Origin: Pocillopora damicornis
Taxonomy: Eukaryota
Direction: 5' to 3'
Assembly: GCF_003704095.1 (NCBI RefSeq)
Contig: NW_020846063.1
Location: forward strand, 1-64,000
DNA length: 64,000 nucleotides
Every line of letters begins with the position of its first letter. Position 1 is the first letter of the stretch. Shown in pieces: positions 29,649 through 38,200 of this stretch. The position numbers were made by a program.

Positions 29649-32600
29649 TCATTGTGTCGCTCCGTATTAGTCGTGATATTTTACAGACGTCTTTGGCTAT
29701 TTCTATTTCCACACCTCTGCGTGAGAGCAGCTGTTTCTTATTTTTCCTTAGAAATTTTGGGCGGGGAAATTGGCGCAAAGTCAACCGAGATTGATCTTCT
29801 TGCGCATGCTCAACGTATGACCGCTGATCAAAGAAAGAAGTACAATAGTCAAAGGCATTCTTGGTACTCACGTGGTATCCTAATCGAGCTGCTTTATGCA
29901 ATATGGTTTCCCCTGTGTTGCGATTCACATTCAACTTCTTGGCCTCTACAAGAAACATCCAGAAGTGGTCACCACAAGAGATACACACGTAATCTCTGAT
30001 TATCGTTCCCACTTTGAATGGGGCTAAGAAATGGGAGGCCATTACAGAGATAATTATTCACAATTTCCGTCCTGCAGAACTGAAAAGCTAGTCGAGGCGG
30101 AGGGTGTTCATGATGCTTTATTTCTAACAAAAACAACAAACTATTAAAACCCCTTGTAAACTGCGGAAAGCACATACCTCTCAAGGTATCATCATCGCTG
30201 GTTTTCTACGAGAGGACAGAAGAAAGCTTGTCAAAGACCTGCCGGTGATGTCTACATCGGTCATATATGATACAGGAACAAATAATAGAGAAATAATAGA
30301 TATACTCACTAAAATCTTAGCAAAAGATGAAACTATCTTCGAAGTTCTTTCAAGGATAAATCGAACTTTCATTTATAGAGAACAGCAGGCAAAACTGCAC
30401 ACGGAACAAGACCCAGACCAAAACAAATTTCGATTCCAAGCGTATCAACTAACGATTACTCATTGGGGCTACTTTAAGTGATCATCTCAGAACTTATCAA
30501 CATATCGACAACTGCATTATATCCGATTTCCTAAAACAGAATTACCTCTTCGACAGAGTCATCCAACTCCCACTTTCCGCGTGCTTTTAGAGAATTCTCT
30601 ACAAGTTGTTGGACCTCCTCATTCTCAGCGATGATACTTTTTCTGATAGGTTTCGAGTTGACACTTTCAACCACCAGCAGAGGGAACTCAGACGTCTTTG
30701 TGGTACTCTTATCATTGTCTGGTTGGCCTTCTAAAAAAGCGGTATTTAAGAAACTGAGTGAATTTTCATCTAATAAAAAAGAATTTATTAACATAACAAT
30801 TCAGTCCTTATATTTACAGTTATTGGTAGGTAAGCAGAAAGTACCTTTGTTAAATATCATAAGGATTTCATAGTTTTTGGCTGGACTGTCTGAAAGTAAT
30901 TGTTTAACCCGAACATAAATAGGAAATTGCAGCAAATTTCGTGCAACTTTGACGTAATTTTGATTTGCTTTGTGTTTAGTTTAGTTTTTTTTTCCTTTTG
31001 TTAAATAATTTATCCTGTGGTAAACGCCAAAAAAGAATGGGTAAAAACGTAAGGACCACAAAAATTTAGCTTTTTCTCGGTTAACCCTTTAGCCCCTGAG
31101 AGTGACTGGCATCTAATTTCTCCTTACTATATCACCACTGAATCAAACATGAAAGTTATGAGAATAGAGGAGATGATCACCAACTAAAGCAACTCTTGAC
31201 TGTTAGACAAATTCTCCTTGTCAGCCTTTTTGGAAATGTATAGAGAACAGTATGGAGAATATGCATACTGATGTTAGGGTGTAAAGGGTTAAACACACTT
31301 TGATAATCCTTATTCATTCCAAACGATCCTCGCTCACTTTTTTTATTATTATTTCTTCCTCTTTGGAGTTTGTCTTCCTTGGTGAACTATTTACTCTTTC
31401 GAGGTTTCTTTTTGATAAACAAACTTTGGATCAATATCAGTATCTGGGCAACTGCCCACCTACCCCTCCCCTAACTCAACAACAGTCAATTGATAACAAG
31501 TTAGGGTTAATGTTGGGTTAGGGGAGGGGCAGGTGGGCACTTGCCCAGATACTGATATTGATCCCAAACTTTTTCTACAACCTCCTTCCCTTTTTTCTCA
31601 CCTAAGAAGAAATGAGTAACACCTTTCGAATTTGCCTTTACATAACTTTGACCCTCATCAATGCCTTGCCTCGTCACTTACCACCATCCGTCTGCTTGGA
31701 CTTTCCACGCGTCCGAGATTCGAGAACCACTGGCTTGAAATCCTGTTCAAGAGAAGAATGATTAGGCAGCATGCACTATGCCTCATACATGTTTCTTGCA
31801 CATTACAGCGCACGAGGATACATTTCTACCCGTGCCAACAGTACATGAAGGAATTTGAGTTACTAAGAAAACAGCATTTTTTAGAGCAAAATAGAATGTT
31901 GAAAAGCAGAAGTTAACGTACCCTAAAACCTTGATACGCTGCGACCAACATGTACGTCTTGGTAACACGGTGAGTTCGGTCAGTTTTAGCTAAGAATAAC
32001 AATAAAAATAAATCATTATTTTGTCACAAGCAAATGGGTTTTACGCTCATAGATGAATTATATGACTGTCGTTCGTCCGTCCTTGAAATAAAAAACGATA
32101 AATTCAACAGAAGAGTGCTATATGCTATGATAAATCTTAAACGTTCCTTTTCCCTACGCAAACAGATGTCAATAATTCCACCATACATATAATCTTGAAG
32201 TATCATATGGGGCATAGAGAGATTCTTTGAGTCACAGGAAGCATCCGCCTGTACCGCCTGTACCCTTAACCCTTGAACTCCCAAGATCTCATTAGTAATT
32301 CTCCTTACTGTCTGCTATACAATTCTTCTGATTTTACTTCTGAGAATTTGGTATTGGATCAACTAATAATCCCCTAATTGACAATTGTCTTGGTTCTCAT
32401 CATTTGTCTTCTTGAATTTGTATTGATATTGTAAGGAGAAATTCTGTCTTGGTCACTCATGGGAGTTAAAGGGTTATTACAGCAATCTTTCTTTTCAAGA
32501 TCTCATCTGACATGAAGCTAAAACTTACCGTTTTTGTCCACAACAACTTCCTGAGAAGGAAAAAAGGAAAACAAAAAATTATGAGAAAGTGTGAAATTTT

Positions 32601-35216: not shown

Positions 35217-38200
35217 TCGTCGGTGGGAGAGTACAAAAGTAACTTTGAATTTCCTAACTACGCCATCACTATCAAATCCTGACAAACATTTTACTAATAG
35301 TTGACACGACTCGGTATAATTTGTAGTAACATAGCTTTGGCCACCATGAATAATAGAAGAAAATCAAGACTAGAAGAACAGAAGAAAGGATGAAATAGTG
35401 AAGAAACTAAAATACAAACAAATGAAAAAAAGAGTTCAACCCATTCCCTAACTTGGTTTTTGACTCATCAAATCGAGTCCATTACAACATTTTGAGTCAT
35501 TCTTCTTCAACGAGAGAAAAAGTAAAAATAACGGTTTAAAGTGGTAAAAAAAGAGAAAGATAGGAAGAGAAATAGAGTAGGCGTAAGACTAGGTCCAAAT
35601 GGACTGCAGATGGCCCAGATGAAAATATGGGCCCATGTTTTAAAAACGCACAAAACAAGAACAAGCTTCTTCAATTCGCACACTTAGCCGAATAAGTTAC
35701 CTGTAGACTTCACCATTATACTTCTCCTCTGAGAAAACCAAAGCCGCTGCAAACCAAGTTGGAAATAAATAAGTATATAAAACACAAATCTGATTCCGAA
35801 TTTAAGGGGGGGTTTAAATTGTACCAGGCCAAATACTGCACCTGCGATTAACTTTTGTTCCCCATGATTCCCAGTTAAAATGTCCACTATGACAAAGAGG
35901 TTTTTTCTACTTACTCTCCGTTTAAATTTCTTTATCCACACCTTTGTTGCTACAAAATGGAAAGAAAGGAATTAATTATACCTTAAAAACCAGTAAAGCG
36001 TACAAACAGAGGAACAAGTACACACAAGACCGAATTTGATGACCACGAAAAAAAAAACCCACAAGAAAAAATTTACAGAAATAAACTCATCCCTGCCGTT
36101 CGCTACAAAGATTCCGTACAACCACAGTGCGATGCACTACACTACATTTCGCAAAATTCCAATAATTCATTTTAACTATACCACTTAAGGTTGGCAAATA
36201 TACAGCGATGTTAAGATATAAAATTTTCCCTAGGTGGGTGGTTTCCTTTGGATAAAAGTGTACTCGACAGATAAAAATAACAGAAAAAGAATACGTTGGA
36301 GCCTAATGAAAATTCTACCTGTTTGTTTCTTTCCATCATTTGGTAAAGTTGATTTTTCCTAGTATAAACAAAATCAAATCAAACAGAATTAAATACACAA
36401 AGAAAATTTTCTGTTCCATTAAACTATAAAAGGAGGAAGGTTTTTCTTTAGAAAGACTTGCTTAAGGTTTGATAACTTGTGTTTATTACACTAAAAGTAA
36501 ATTAATGTAAACATCAAACACAAATTATTGGTGAGCTATAGCTCAGTAGGAAGCATCGAAACCCATCGACATTCGGGATGGTGGAAAGCAGTGAATTATC
36601 ACGTCTGGCGAAGGTGGCGAGACTCCAGCTGACTTTATGTTAGTCAAATAAGCCTACATGCCACCTTAAATGACGTATCAGTTGAAAAAGCGCTTGGTAG
36701 AAAGCTCAAAACTCCAGGGAGGATTTAAGTCGTGAGAAACTACACTATTAACTAAAATATGTCCTTTAGTGACAACACTTGACTACTATTTAATGTAACG
36801 ATCGGAACTAAATGTACAAGTTGTGAACAGCTTAGACAAGAAATTAAAACATTCCAGAAATATTAACCAATGAGCTAAGGAGGTCAAGAAACATCTTGAG
36901 AGCCAACTGGAGTAAGCTCCAATGCTTCAGTTCAGTGAGAAACAAAGCCACGGTACACGGAACAAATAAAAAATATCTATCATAAGTAATTAAAGGCTCC
37001 ACTTTTCTTTTCTTACTATTTGTTAATTTTAATGTCATGATTATTTCTCTCCCACCTTCTGGACATAAATTGATTAAAAACCATCCTGTTTGGATATCTA
37101 CCTCGAAATGTACCTACCCTTCGTAACCAAAACACGCTAGCAAGATATTATCTGTATTTTACCTAGATTATTAACATCATGATTAATAATGGTAATTGAA
37201 TTGAGTGGAGTGCAATTAGGGCTGAAATCATACGCGAGGTTCAATTACCACGTTACTACATCCATTTTGAAATCGCCCAAATACAGAATTTGGTCAGTTC
37301 AATTATTTTATTGATGCAGTACTGAGTCGGTTTGAAATTAAATTCATCCCTTTTTTGGAGGAAAAAAATTACACTTTTGGAAACAAAACTTGCAAAATTT
37401 GCCACGTGATACTCTGTCTTTCATTTTCCTGCAATTTGATTGGTTACTTTAAACAAGACTTGAAATCTGATTGGTTGTATTTTTTTTTAGTGTAGCCTTC
37501 TCATTGACTGAGAAAAAGATGCGATTTAAAGCAAAAAATGGTGCGATTCGTGAATAAATCGCACCAGTTAGAGCCAATCAGATTAGAGGGACCACCAGTG
37601 ATTTCAAAATGGGTGTAACAAAAAGGAAAACTGAACTTATTCAAGCGCGGATACAATACCTTGTGTCTTTTCCGTAGCCGCCTTTTGAATGAGTCTTTCT
37701 TCCTCATTTCTTTACATTTCTCTTTCATTTCCATTTCACTAAACTGCATCATTGCTCTTTGTAAAGCTCTTTCTTCACGAGTTAATTGGCTTGGGTCTCG
37801 GTACAAGTCCCCAACGCTGGTTTCACGGACAGGCGATGGAAGCCTGGGCTCAAGGCGGCGAATCATTGCTTTGTTTTGCTTTTTCTTGGAGTTACTTCCC
37901 TTGTCCTCACCAATGTCTTCAAGATTTTCTTCGTCTTCAATATTTTCTACGTCTTCAACGTTTCTTACGTCTTCAACATTTTCTTCTTCTTCAACATTTT
38001 CTATTACTTTAACGTTCCTTACGTCTTCGACACTTTCTTCGTGCTCAACATTTTCTTCGTCTTCAACATTTTCTTCGTCTTCAATATTTTCTACGTCTTT
38101 AACGTTTCTTACGTCTTCGACATATTCTACGTCTTCAACGTTTTCTACATCTGTCTTATCAACGGGAGAACGCTCTTCCAGGCATTCCCCAAGGCAATTT

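What the first reader, a model, noticed from the sequence alone, without database searches (positions are those of the whole stretch)
29872..36358. BCOR linker built from strictly alternating phase-0/phase-1 small exons, possibly a serially duplicated two-exon cassette
Seen (minus strand, all AG/GT-bounded, open frame): 36319-36358 (0>1, 40 nt), 35915-35949 (1>0, 35), 35701-35728 (0>1, 28), 34942-35030 (1>0, 89), 34803-34842 (0>1, 40), 34200-34273 (1>0, 74), 33193-33229 (0>1, 37), 32970-33109 (1>0, 140), 32529-32550 (0>1, 22), 31789-31862 (1>0, 74), 31682-31742 (0>1, 61), [31338-31601, 1>0, MITE-interrupted], 30546-30730 (1>0, 185), 30178-30205 (0>1, 28), 29872-29945 (1>0, 74, first ankyrin exon). 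Lengths recur (28, 40, 74 nt) and the peptides are K/R-rich. Inference: repeated tandem duplication of a 0>1 plus 1>0 exon pair, perhaps the pair adjoining the ankyrins. Every adjacent pair is frame-neutral, so pairs could be skipped combinatorially to tune the length and charge of the disordered linker in a PRC1.1 scaffold.
Basis: partly seen in the sequence, partly recalled or inferred. Interest (0 to 1): 0.72.

Follow-up and report, generated by a model that had tools for sequence, protein, structure and literature searches.

The report
Alternating-phase small exons in coral BCOR
The middle of a coral BCOR-type Polycomb gene really is built from 14 tiny exons whose introns strictly alternate between two reading-frame phases, but the exons are old, always used together and unrelated to each other, so this is an odd frozen gene structure and not a tunable duplicated cassette.

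Summary
The window is coral DNA (Pocillopora-like), not human. The minus strand at 26823-48475 holds a 28-exon BCOR/BCORL-type gene with ankyrin repeats and a PUFD domain.

- 35701-35728 starts 18 nt too late; the exon is 35701-35746.
- 31789-31862 is false; the real exon is 31922-31989.
- The "MITE-interrupted" 31338-31601 is intron.

The corrected model tiles P. verrucosa XP_058952181 residue for residue, and a spliced transcript ORF covers E12-E28.

Phase pattern: the alternation is real and longer than claimed, with 16 consecutive introns (1,0,1,0...) around 15 exons (E8-E22). With human phase frequencies, P is about 5e-7 to 4e-6 for a 27-intron gene. Only 1 of 26 internal exons is symmetric.

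Serial duplication is not supported. There is no DNA, peptide or profile similarity among the modules, pair lengths run 75-246 nt, and all 14 exon equivalents are collinear in the aligned Stylophora, Oculina, Montipora and Acropora-type proteins. Four intron positions are indirectly traceable in other corals or Nematostella.

Pair skipping is not supported. Among the named isoform models and long transcript ORFs compared from Stylophora, Oculina, Montipora, three Acropora species, Nematostella and Actinia, linker differences are 1-residue shifts, 2-residue KT differences in a Montipora-type repeat, and one 7-residue insertion.

An ancient origin by duplication cannot be excluded.

The parts
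37660..39542 (-). E8, large exon (1883 nt, phase 1>0). It is the first exon of the alternating run.
   Evidence: tblastn of Stylophora P0004, 72% identity over 632 aa. Boundaries AG/GT. Genomic ORF calls read through its donor: P0057 ends ...RKRHK+VLYPRLN.
36319..36358 (-). E9, 40 nt, 0>1, EKSTLPNDGKKQT
   Evidence: Exact substring of P0084 at 851-863.
35915..35949 (-). E10, 35 nt, 1>0, TKVWIKKFKRR (basic cluster)
   Evidence: Exact in P0084 at 865-875, one residue after E9 as a phase-1 junction predicts.
35701..35746 (-). E11, 46 nt, 0>1, RLWFSQRRSIMVKST.
   Evidence: Exact in P0084 at 876-890. The RLWFSQ junction is in 24 of 96 fetched proteins.
34942..35030 (-). E12, 89 nt, 1>0
   Evidence: Exact in P0084 at 892-920 and in transcript ORF P0091 at 7-35.
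34803..34842 (-). E13, 40 nt, 0>1, DEQPKLKRNRVER
   Evidence: Exact in P0084 and P0091. Acropora isoform pairs differ by one Q exactly at the mapped E12|E13 border.
34200..34273 (-). E14, 74 nt, 1>0
   Evidence: Exact in P0084 and P0091. An Oculina alternative model inserts 7 residues exactly at the E13|E14 split codon.
33193..33229 (-). E15, 37 nt, 0>1, NKPVKLKRSSSE
   Evidence: Exact in P0084 and P0091.
32970..33109 (-). E16, 140 nt, 1>0
   Evidence: Exact in P0084 and P0091.
32529..32550 (-). E17, 22-nt exon, 0>1, EVVVDKN
   Evidence: Exact in P0084 at 1018-1024 and in P0091.
31922..31989 (-). E18, 68 nt, 1>0, KTDRTHRVTKTYMLVAAYQGFR.
   Evidence: tblastn 22 of 23 identical to P0004. 21 of 22 to P0084 and P0091. 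Motif invariant across 11 cnidarian sequences.
31682..31742 (-). E19, 61 nt, 0>1, DFKPVVLESRTRGKSKQTDG
   Evidence: Exact in P0084 and P0091.
30546..30730 (-). E20, 185 nt, 1>0. Holds the EFPLLVVESV motif and a predicted helix.
   Evidence: Exact in P0084 at 1069-1129. 30 of 61 identical to Nematostella. AF2 strand and helix at low confidence.
30178..30205 (-). E21, 28 nt, 0>1, KTSDDDTLR
   Evidence: Exact in P0084 at 1130-1138.
29872..29945 (-). E22, 74 nt, 1>0, start of the first ankyrin repeat. It is the last exon of the alternating run.
   Evidence: Exact in P0084 at 1140-1163. Pfam Ank_2 starts at the homologous residue of P0004.
31418..31574 (.). Palindrome (64-nt arms, 89% complementary) inside intron 19. 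It is not exonic.
   Evidence: the repeat finder I1. No second copy in the window. Flanking open pieces are absent from 96 proteins.
26823..29621 (-). E23-E28: the rest of the ankyrin repeats and the PUFD domain. Intron phases here are 2,1,0,1,2, so the alternation ends.
40085..48475 (-). E1-E7, the N-terminal exons. Intron phases are 2,0,2,0,2,1 and then 1 before E8. E4 has a GC donor.

Best explanation
The region is the constitutively spliced pre-ankyrin segment of a coral BCOR/BCORL-type gene.

Shown:
- Fourteen small exons (22-185 nt) follow a 1.9-kb exon and precede the ankyrin-PUFD module.
- All are joined in the reference model of a congener, and E12-E28 are joined in a spliced transcript ORF.
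- They encode a basic segment that is mostly low-confidence in the structure model, consistent with disorder. It carries four K/R clusters and two short motifs invariant across Cnidaria.
- Introns alternate phase 1/0 sixteen times.
- Every one of these exons is asymmetric.

Inferred:
- Because each exon is asymmetric, skipping any single one shifts the frame. The block therefore behaves as a frame-locked constitutive unit. The only in-frame variation seen in relatives is small shifts at exon borders.
- The K/R clusters probably act as nuclear-localisation signals.
- The conserved motifs probably act as partner-binding linear motifs next to the PCGF1-docking C-terminus.

Origin: I read the alternation as an ancient, frozen exon-intron structure, in place at least before the deepest split among the aligned corals. 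[quoted passage not shown] It does not look like the trace of a recognisable cassette duplication or a device for combinatorial splicing. How the gene came to avoid symmetric exons is unresolved.
For: - Exon peptides, translated one by one, tile P. verrucosa XP_058952181 (P0084). The gaps are 0 after phase-0 junctions and 1 after phase-1 junctions. 13 of 14 linker peptides are exact.
- P0091, a 549-aa ORF on a 2392-nt contig and hence spliced, tiles E12-E28.
- All 14 exon equivalents are collinear in Stylophora, Oculina, Montipora and Acropora-type proteins. Indels are at most 6 residues and sit at exon borders.
- Intron positions are implied elsewhere. Donor read-through ORFs mark the E8|E9 border in Pocillopora-, Stylophora-, Montipora- and Acropora-type genomic ORF calls. 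A 1-residue isoform difference sits exactly at E11|E12 in Nematostella and at E12|E13 in three Acropora species, and a 7-residue insertion sits at E13|E14 in Oculina.
- There is no module similarity. DNA self-comparison gives 5 matches against a mean of 3.6 in shuffles, with best score 26.8 bits against a mean of 25.8. 4 of 91 peptide pairs reach p<0.05, where 4.6 are expected, and mean z for same-class pairs is -0.22. hhalign gives at most 1.5% probability for all 36 pair-unit comparisons and at most 7.5% for the 91 single-exon pairs.
- No linker exon or pair is missing in the isoforms and long transcript ORFs compared.
- AF2 gives pLDDT below 50 for residues 58-283 of P0007, while the ankyrin part scores about 90.
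- Invariant residues across 11 cnidarian sequences fall in E18-E20.
- 25 of 26 internal exons are asymmetric, P = 1e-4 to 5e-7.
Against: - A strict 16-intron alternation is very unlikely under independent phases (5e-7 to 4e-6). It is still unlikely when only asymmetric exons are allowed (4e-3 for a run of 15 or more). A 'frozen accident' therefore leaves the pattern itself unexplained.
- Duplication of a two-exon unit is the simplest generator of such a pattern and has a precedent in MAP2 (PMC3632108, section 19).
- The E9-E17 part evolves fast (3 of 13 to 6 of 15 identities to Nematostella per exon), so duplicates older than the Hexacorallia could have lost all similarity.
- No RNA data from the window's own species at junction level could be examined.
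- Only 40 of 84 members of the Pocillopora cluster were read and 15 listed, so other isoforms may exist.
- The phase frequencies used as the null are human, not coral.
- The nuclear-localisation and partner-binding roles are inferred from composition and conservation only.
- Selection against symmetric exons is not an established phenomenon.
Confidence: 0.6

Rival explanations
1. Ancient serial tandem duplication of a two-exon (0>1 + 1>0) cassette built at least the K/R-rich part of the linker (E9-E16) before the Hexacorallia diverged. The sequences have since drifted beyond recognition, while the intron phases stayed fixed.
For: - The alternation is strict, and duplication of a pair is its simplest generator.
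- In 6 of 7 pairs the 0>1 exon is the shorter one (lengths).
- K/R clusters recur.
- The best, though insignificant, profile match is between two 0>1 exons, E13 and E15. It covers the KLKR patch, with hhalign probability 7.5%.
- PMC3632108 section 19 proposes exactly this history for the MAP2 1,0-0,1 exon pairs.
- E9-E17 diverge fast between corals and anemones.
Against: - No similarity exists at any level.
- Pair lengths are irregular: 75, 135, 114, 177, 90, 246 and 102 nt.
- Module number does not vary among the aligned coral proteins.
- E18-E22 carry distinct conserved sequences, including an ankyrin repeat start. They cannot be copies of the basic exons, so about half of the run would still need another explanation.
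- The gene avoids symmetric exons outside the linker too.
Confidence: 0.2
2. The exon pairs are coordinated cassette units that are skipped in some tissues or stages to tune linker length and charge.
For: - Any adjacent pair is frame-neutral by arithmetic.
- In vertebrates an in-frame 34-residue segment of BCOR is alternatively spliced and controls AF9 binding (PMC13703134, section 3.1, passages read).
Against: - None of the NCBI isoform sets or long transcript ORFs compared from Stylophora, Oculina, Montipora, three Acropora species, Nematostella and Actinia lacks a linker exon or pair. Isoform differences there lie at the N-terminus or C-terminus. Within the linker they are 1-residue shifts, a 2-residue KT difference in a Montipora-type KT repeat, and one 7-residue insertion.
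- The spacing from FSEME to the first ankyrin repeat is 329 residues in P0004 and in all 4 Stylophora-type transcript ORFs that span it.
- Several of the exons carry residues invariant across Cnidaria.
Confidence: 0.07
3. Pure coincidence. Introns accumulated independently and the alternation has no cause. It was noticed only because a reader was looking for patterns.
For: - The pattern was selected after the fact.
- Giving all of 25000 genes 27 introns, a gross overestimate, yields 0.01-0.1 expected runs of 16 or more per genome. Across many genomes scanned, some will occur.
Against: - The per-gene probability is 5e-7 to 4e-6.
- The same gene also has only 1 of 26 symmetric exons (P = 1e-4 or less), a second departure in the same direction.
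Confidence: 0.13

Closest known systems
Vertebrate BCOR / BCORL1 (PRC1.1 corepressors)
   Same: - Ankyrin repeats are followed by a C-terminal PUFD domain.
- There is one very large exon followed by many small ones. Human BCOR has 15 exons (PMC13703134, section 3.1).
- A functional segment lies before the ankyrin repeats.
   Different: - The coral gene has 28 coding exons, 14 of them between the large exon and the ankyrin repeats.
- No AF9-binding consensus LxVxIxLxx[VL] is present: 0 of 7 cnidarian proteins match, strict or relaxed (consensus from PMC8022399).
- No alternatively spliced in-frame segment was seen.
- The intron phases of the vertebrate gene could not be compared here.
MAP2/tau-type repeated 1,0-0,1 exon pairs (PMC3632108, section 19)
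   Same: Exons alternate 1>0 and 0>1 in a gene for a largely disordered protein. That paper proposes duplication of an exon pair as the origin.
   Different: There the pairs encode recognisable tubulin-binding repeats. Here the units share no detectable similarity and differ more than threefold in length.
NAGNAG / tandem splice-site variation
   Same: Within the linker, most isoform differences in relatives are 1-residue changes placed at exon borders. This is what tandem acceptors produce. The NAGNAG label is my recalled knowledge; the splice-site sequences of those species were not seen.
   Different: These events do not change exon content.
RefSeq model XP_058952181 (Pocillopora verrucosa) and CAH3149530 (P. 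meandrina)
   Same: The window's exons tile these 1434-residue proteins completely, so the exon set is already annotated in congeners.
   Different: No paper found here comments on the phase pattern.

Membership tests
BCOR/BCORL family | C-terminal PUFD domain (Pfam PF16553) | tested here: met
   The window's last exon alone scores 26.4 bits (E = 8e-6), below the 29.5 cut-off, because the domain is split over E27 and E28. The full orthologues score 38.2, 37.0 and 32.6 bits. The window's exons tile P0084 exactly. The window's joined protein was not scanned.
BCOR/BCORL family | Ankyrin repeats directly upstream of the PUFD domain | tested here: met
   Ank, Ank_4 and Ank_5 hit exon 29001-29261. 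Ank_2 covers 1118-1207 of P0004. AF2 pLDDT is about 90 there.
BCOR/BCORL family | Binding of PCGF1 RAWUL and assembly into PRC1.1 | not testable with these tools
   The partner gene is not in the window and no complex job was run.
BCOR/BCORL family | AF9/ENL AHD-binding motif LxVxIxLxx[VL] (BCOR-specific and isoform-dependent) | tested here: not met
   A regular-expression search, strict and relaxed, matched 0 of 7 cnidarian BCOR-like proteins.
Tandemly duplicated two-exon cassette array | Alternating intron phases | tested here: met
   16 introns alternate 1,0...,0.
Tandemly duplicated two-exon cassette array | Detectable sequence similarity among units (DNA, peptide or profile) | tested here: not met
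   DNA; peptides: 4 of 91 pairs at p<0.05; hhalign at most 1.5% for pair units.
Tandemly duplicated two-exon cassette array | Regular unit length | tested here: not met
   Pair lengths are 75, 135, 114, 177, 90, 246 and 102 nt.
Tandemly duplicated two-exon cassette array | Copy number varies among lineages | tested here: inconclusive
   Stylophora, Oculina, Montipora and Acropora-type proteins have the same 14 exon equivalents. Anemone linkers are 19-42 residues longer, but their genomes could not be fetched.
Coordinated (pairwise) cassette exons | Transcripts or isoforms lacking an exon pair | tested here: not met
   None was found among the isoforms and long transcript ORFs of the relatives compared. 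Junction-level RNA data for the window's own species are not available here.

The most novel reading that the evidence does not exclude
The 16-intron 1/0 alternation, together with the near-absence of symmetric exons across the whole gene, may be a selected 'frame-lock'. In a dosage-sensitive Polycomb scaffold, every exon would be kept asymmetric so that any single mis-skipping of a tiny exon yields a frameshift and decay, not an in-frame and possibly dominant-negative protein. Alternatively, the pattern may be the fossil of a pre-hexacorallian serial duplication of a two-exon cassette.
Probability: 0.25. Interest if true: 0.55.

Novelty: already known. Interest (0 to 1): 0.3.

Why it matters
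The gene and its exons are already in reference annotations of congeneric corals, so nothing new is added to the gene catalogue.

What remains is a statistical oddity of gene architecture: 15 consecutive asymmetric exons, strictly alternating, in a gene with 25 of 26 asymmetric internal exons. If a genome-wide survey showed that such frame-locked runs are enriched in particular gene classes, it would bear on how exon phase is shaped by selection against in-frame mis-splicing. In this single gene it is a curiosity.

The practical lesson for the scan is that AG/GT-bounded open frames are abundant (2393 in 6.7 kb). Homology overturned 2 of the 15 exon calls and extended a third.

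Tried and rejected
- AF9-binding motif in the conserved E18-E20 peptides. I recalled a resemblance to the hydrophobic beta-strand motif and took the consensus from PMC8022399. 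There was no match, strict or relaxed, in 7 of 7 cnidarian proteins.
- PDB sequence search with P0004. The 60 chains listed are ankyrin-repeat proteins and designed repeat binders, and nothing informative matched the linker.
- Pfam on the linker. No family matched at E up to 1, apart from a GAT-domain hit (E = 0.087) at 1067-1111 of P0017 with no stretch passing on its own.
- Other genes in the region. Six ORFs of 96-118 aa on either strand gave no Pfam hit above noise; the one sub-threshold match was Longin_2, 17.6 bits against a 27.3 cut-off. Rfam found no family at gathering score in 29800-36500.
- Vertebrate intron phases from the literature. PMC2535898 and the listing gave no usable exon coordinates, so I dropped this. 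PMC7497807 is not held.
- Length recurrence as a duplication signal. Rejected, because it is expected by chance.
- P0014, an ORF starting in another frame of E14. I read it as an indel in one assembled contig and not as a splice variant; I did not pursue it.
- Not attempted: the search of protein representatives, the protein-atlas search, complex prediction and fold search. The first returns unnamed hits that I could not have told apart from human BCOR.
- Not attempted: the window's joined coding sequence was never assembled or searched. All comparisons were made exon by exon or with public proteins.

Full report
**What the window holds.** The sequence is about 38% G+C and has two 100-N runs at 16634-16733 and 55526-55625. 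Both lie outside the finding and were left alone. It is coral DNA, not human. The 689-codon open frame at 37504-39570 (minus strand) is 72% identical to a Stylophora pistillata protein. It is 97% identical to a cluster that contains Pocillopora verrucosa XP_058952181 and P. meandrina CAH3149530. The exon at 29001-29261 matches ankyrin models, and the exon at 26826-27140 matches the PUFD domain at E = 8e-6. In the full-length orthologues PUFD passes Pfam's cut-off (38.2, 37.0 and 32.6 bits against 29.5). UniProt calls the Stylophora protein 'BCL-6 corepressor'.

**Checking the exons.** All 15 listed segments have AG and GT at their ends and the stated lengths. That test is weak, because the same 6.7 kb holds 2393 AG..GT open segments of 20-200 nt. 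I therefore translated each exon on its own and compared it with public proteins.

tblastn of the Stylophora protein against the window, followed by reading the boundaries, gave a 28-exon model spanning 48475-26823. Each exon peptide was then located in P0084. The peptides tile all 1434 residues. The gap is 0 after every phase-0 junction and 1 after every other junction, which independently confirms the phases.

Among the linker exons, 13 of 14 peptides are exact substrings and E18 matches 21 of 22. A 549-residue ORF carried on a 2392-nt contig (P0091) must come from spliced RNA, because the same exons span 9 kb here. It tiles E12-E28 in the same way.

- 35701-35728 must start at 35746.
- 31789-31862 is replaced by 31922-31989.
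- 31338-31601 is intron. It has stops in all frames and the wrong end phase, and its peptides occur in 0 of 96 fetched proteins.

The 'MITE' is a 64-nt-arm palindrome in intron 19 with no second copy in the window.

**The pattern.** The intron phases along the gene are 2,0,2,0,2,1,1,0,1,0,1,0,1,0,1,0,1,0,1,0,1,0,2,1,0,1,2. The alternation is then strict and runs over 16 introns, from before E8 to after E22.

For a null I used the intron and exon phase counts in Table 1 of PMC3632108, from the section I read. These are human data: 46/33/21% for the three phases, with nine exon classes. A run of 16 or more in a 27-intron gene has probability 4.3e-6 with independent phases and 5.4e-7 with a first-order chain. 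Even if 25000 genes all had 27 introns, 0.01-0.1 such runs would be expected per genome. Shuffling the order of this gene's own 26 internal exons gives a run of 15 or more in 98 of 200000 trials.

The gene as a whole has 1 symmetric exon (E7) among 26, where about 37-49% would be expected (P = 1e-4 to 5e-7). If only asymmetric exons are allowed, a run of 15 or more still has probability 4e-3. The pattern is therefore more than simple chance. It was, however, picked out after the fact, and the null is not a coral one.

**Is it a duplicated cassette?**
- The repeat finder found only short low-complexity matches in 29800-36500.
- A sensitive same-strand self-comparison gave 5 off-diagonal matches at E up to 10, against a mean of 3.6 (range 1-8) in 20 shuffles. 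The best score was 26.8 bits against a shuffle mean of 25.8.
- Of 91 exon-peptide pairs, 4 reach p<0.05 against shuffles, where 4.6 are expected. Same-phase-class pairs are no more alike than cross-class pairs (mean z -0.22 against 0.01).
- I built five-species profiles for each exon and for each two-exon unit in both registers. hhalign gives at most 1.5% probability for all 36 unit pairs. The best single-exon pair is 7.5% (E13 with E15, a shared KLKR patch).
- Pair lengths run from 75 to 246 nt.
- The recurring lengths shrink to 40 nt twice and 74 nt twice, which chance predicts.

There is therefore no positive evidence for duplication. It is not excluded for the fast-evolving E9-E17 part, where identity to Nematostella is 0-40% per exon. 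It cannot account for E18-E22, whose sequences are conserved and unlike one another.

**Age.** In an alignment of six proteins (Stylophora, Oculina, two Montipora species, the Montipora-type P0003 and the Acropora-type P0033), all 14 exon equivalents are present and collinear. Indels are at most 6 residues and lie at exon borders.

I could not fetch eukaryotic genomes, so I used two indirect markers of intron position.

First, prokaryote-style ORF calls on genomic contigs read through a donor. After ...RKRHK or ...RKRDK they continue with V... in Pocillopora-, Stylophora-, Montipora- and Acropora-type records, where the mRNA-derived proteins continue with the E9 sequence.

Second, isoform pairs differ by one residue exactly at mapped borders. 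These are a V at E11|E12 in Nematostella and a Q at E12|E13 in Acropora digitifera, A. muricata and A. millepora. A second Oculina model inserts 7 residues at the E13|E14 split codon.

Two Actinia markers fall within 3-4 residues of mapped borders in poorly aligned stretches, and I count them as weak. Introns of both phases are thus shared beyond the window's genus.

**Is it spliced combinatorially?** I compared every named isoform and long transcript ORF obtained:
- Stylophora X1 and X2 plus three long Logan ORFs;
- Oculina X1-X3 and a second annotation;
- two Montipora species and two further Montipora-type transcript ORFs;
- three Acropora species with 2-3 isoforms each;
- Nematostella X1-X4;
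- Actinia X1-X3.

Differences lie at the N-terminus, at the C-terminus, or are small border changes. Within the linker they are 1-residue shifts, a 2-residue KT difference in a KT repeat of the Montipora-type proteins, and the 7-residue Oculina insertion. No linker exon or pair is missing. The distance from FSEME to the first ankyrin repeat is 329 residues in P0004 and in all 4 Stylophora-type transcript ORFs that span it.

Two limits apply. Reference isoform sets are incomplete. Only 40 of the 84 members of the Pocillopora cluster were read and 15 listed.

**What the segment is likely to do.**
- It has 22.7% K+R against 13.2% for the whole protein, with clusters KKFKRRR, KKRR, KRNR and KKAVKR. 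I read these as nuclear-localisation-type signals, which is an inference.
- AlphaFold2 on an 11-sequence alignment headed by P0007, a Stylophora-type fragment, gives pLDDT below 50 for residues 58-283. It gives about 90 for the ankyrin repeats and 60-88 for PUFD. Low-confidence helices lie over E10-E11 and over the end of E20, with one more over E21-E22. The alignment is shallow, so this is only indicative.
- Across the 11 cnidarian sequences, including Hydractinia, invariant residues cluster in E18-E20 (K.Y.LV..Y.GF.DF.P.V..SRTR and PL.V...V). The segment is therefore a carrier of linear motifs as well as a spacer.
- The motifs do not fit the AF9-binding consensus (consensus from passages of PMC8022399).
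- In vertebrates an alternatively spliced 34-residue piece controls AF9 binding (PMC13703134, section 3.1 passages).

**Verdict.** The two interpretive claims, serial duplication and combinatorial skipping, find no support. The exon set is already annotated in congeners.

The unexplained residue is the phase statistics. No paper in the searched library links BCOR with cnidarian gene structure or describes such alternation: there were 0 papers for BCOR + PCGF1 + Nematostella; in the listing for BCOR + cnidaria, 6 papers each mention BCOR once and none has either word in its title or abstract; and none of the 12 papers listed used the phrases 'alternating intron phases' or 'alternating phases'. 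Supplementary files were not consulted.

Left unchecked:
- intron maps of orthologous loci;
- junction-level RNA data;
- a coral-specific null;
- the closed contig collections.

Noticed in passing
window 31082-31292 and 32265-32476: Two families of roughly 210-nt interspersed, MITE-like repeats sit in introns 19 and 17. Further copies of the first lie at 12622-12830, 25759-25970, 55981-56167, 18616-18827 and 41173-41379. Further copies of the second lie at 50401-50612, 27984-28181, 16267-16477 and 12277-12488. Identities are 70-88%.
   Followed up: partly
window 31418-31574: A palindrome with 64-nt arms (89% complementary, 29-nt loop) lies in intron 19. It has no other copy in the window.
   Followed up: partly
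window 42067-42068: The intron after E4 has a GC donor (CCG|GCAAGT), giving a GC-AG intron. The junction is confirmed by tiling on P0084.
   Followed up: yes
window 41926-48475: The five N-terminal introns also alternate, 2,0,2,0,2. Gene-wide, only E7 (40085-40285, 1>1) is a symmetric exon.
   Followed up: partly
window 32529-32550: E17 is a 22-nt exon. It is present in the Pocillopora model and the spliced transcript ORF, and its equivalent is present in every coral protein aligned.
   Followed up: yes
window 30731-30736: The Stylophora protein has two extra residues (VL) at the E19|E20 border. In the window the corresponding upstream acceptor is not AG, and P0084 uses the same acceptor as my model. 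The window's acceptor reads TAG|AAG|G, a possible tandem acceptor.
   Followed up: partly
window 5640-8324 (-), 20919-21911 (+), 23706-24632 (-): The neighbouring single-exon ORFs are a class C GPCR (ANF_receptor + NCD3G + 7tm_3) and two rhodopsin-type GPCRs.
   Followed up: no
window 58000-60000: This stretch has a strong negative GC skew (-0.27) and AT skew (-0.20) and overlapping Pro/Ser/Leu-rich open frames on the plus strand. It looks like low-complexity sequence.
   Followed up: no
window 37950-38400 (inside E8): E8 contains an acidic, imperfectly repeated ENVEDV-type stretch. It gave a weak LED_rpt match (18 bits against a 59 cut-off) and holds a 6-residue indel relative to P0084.
   Followed up: no
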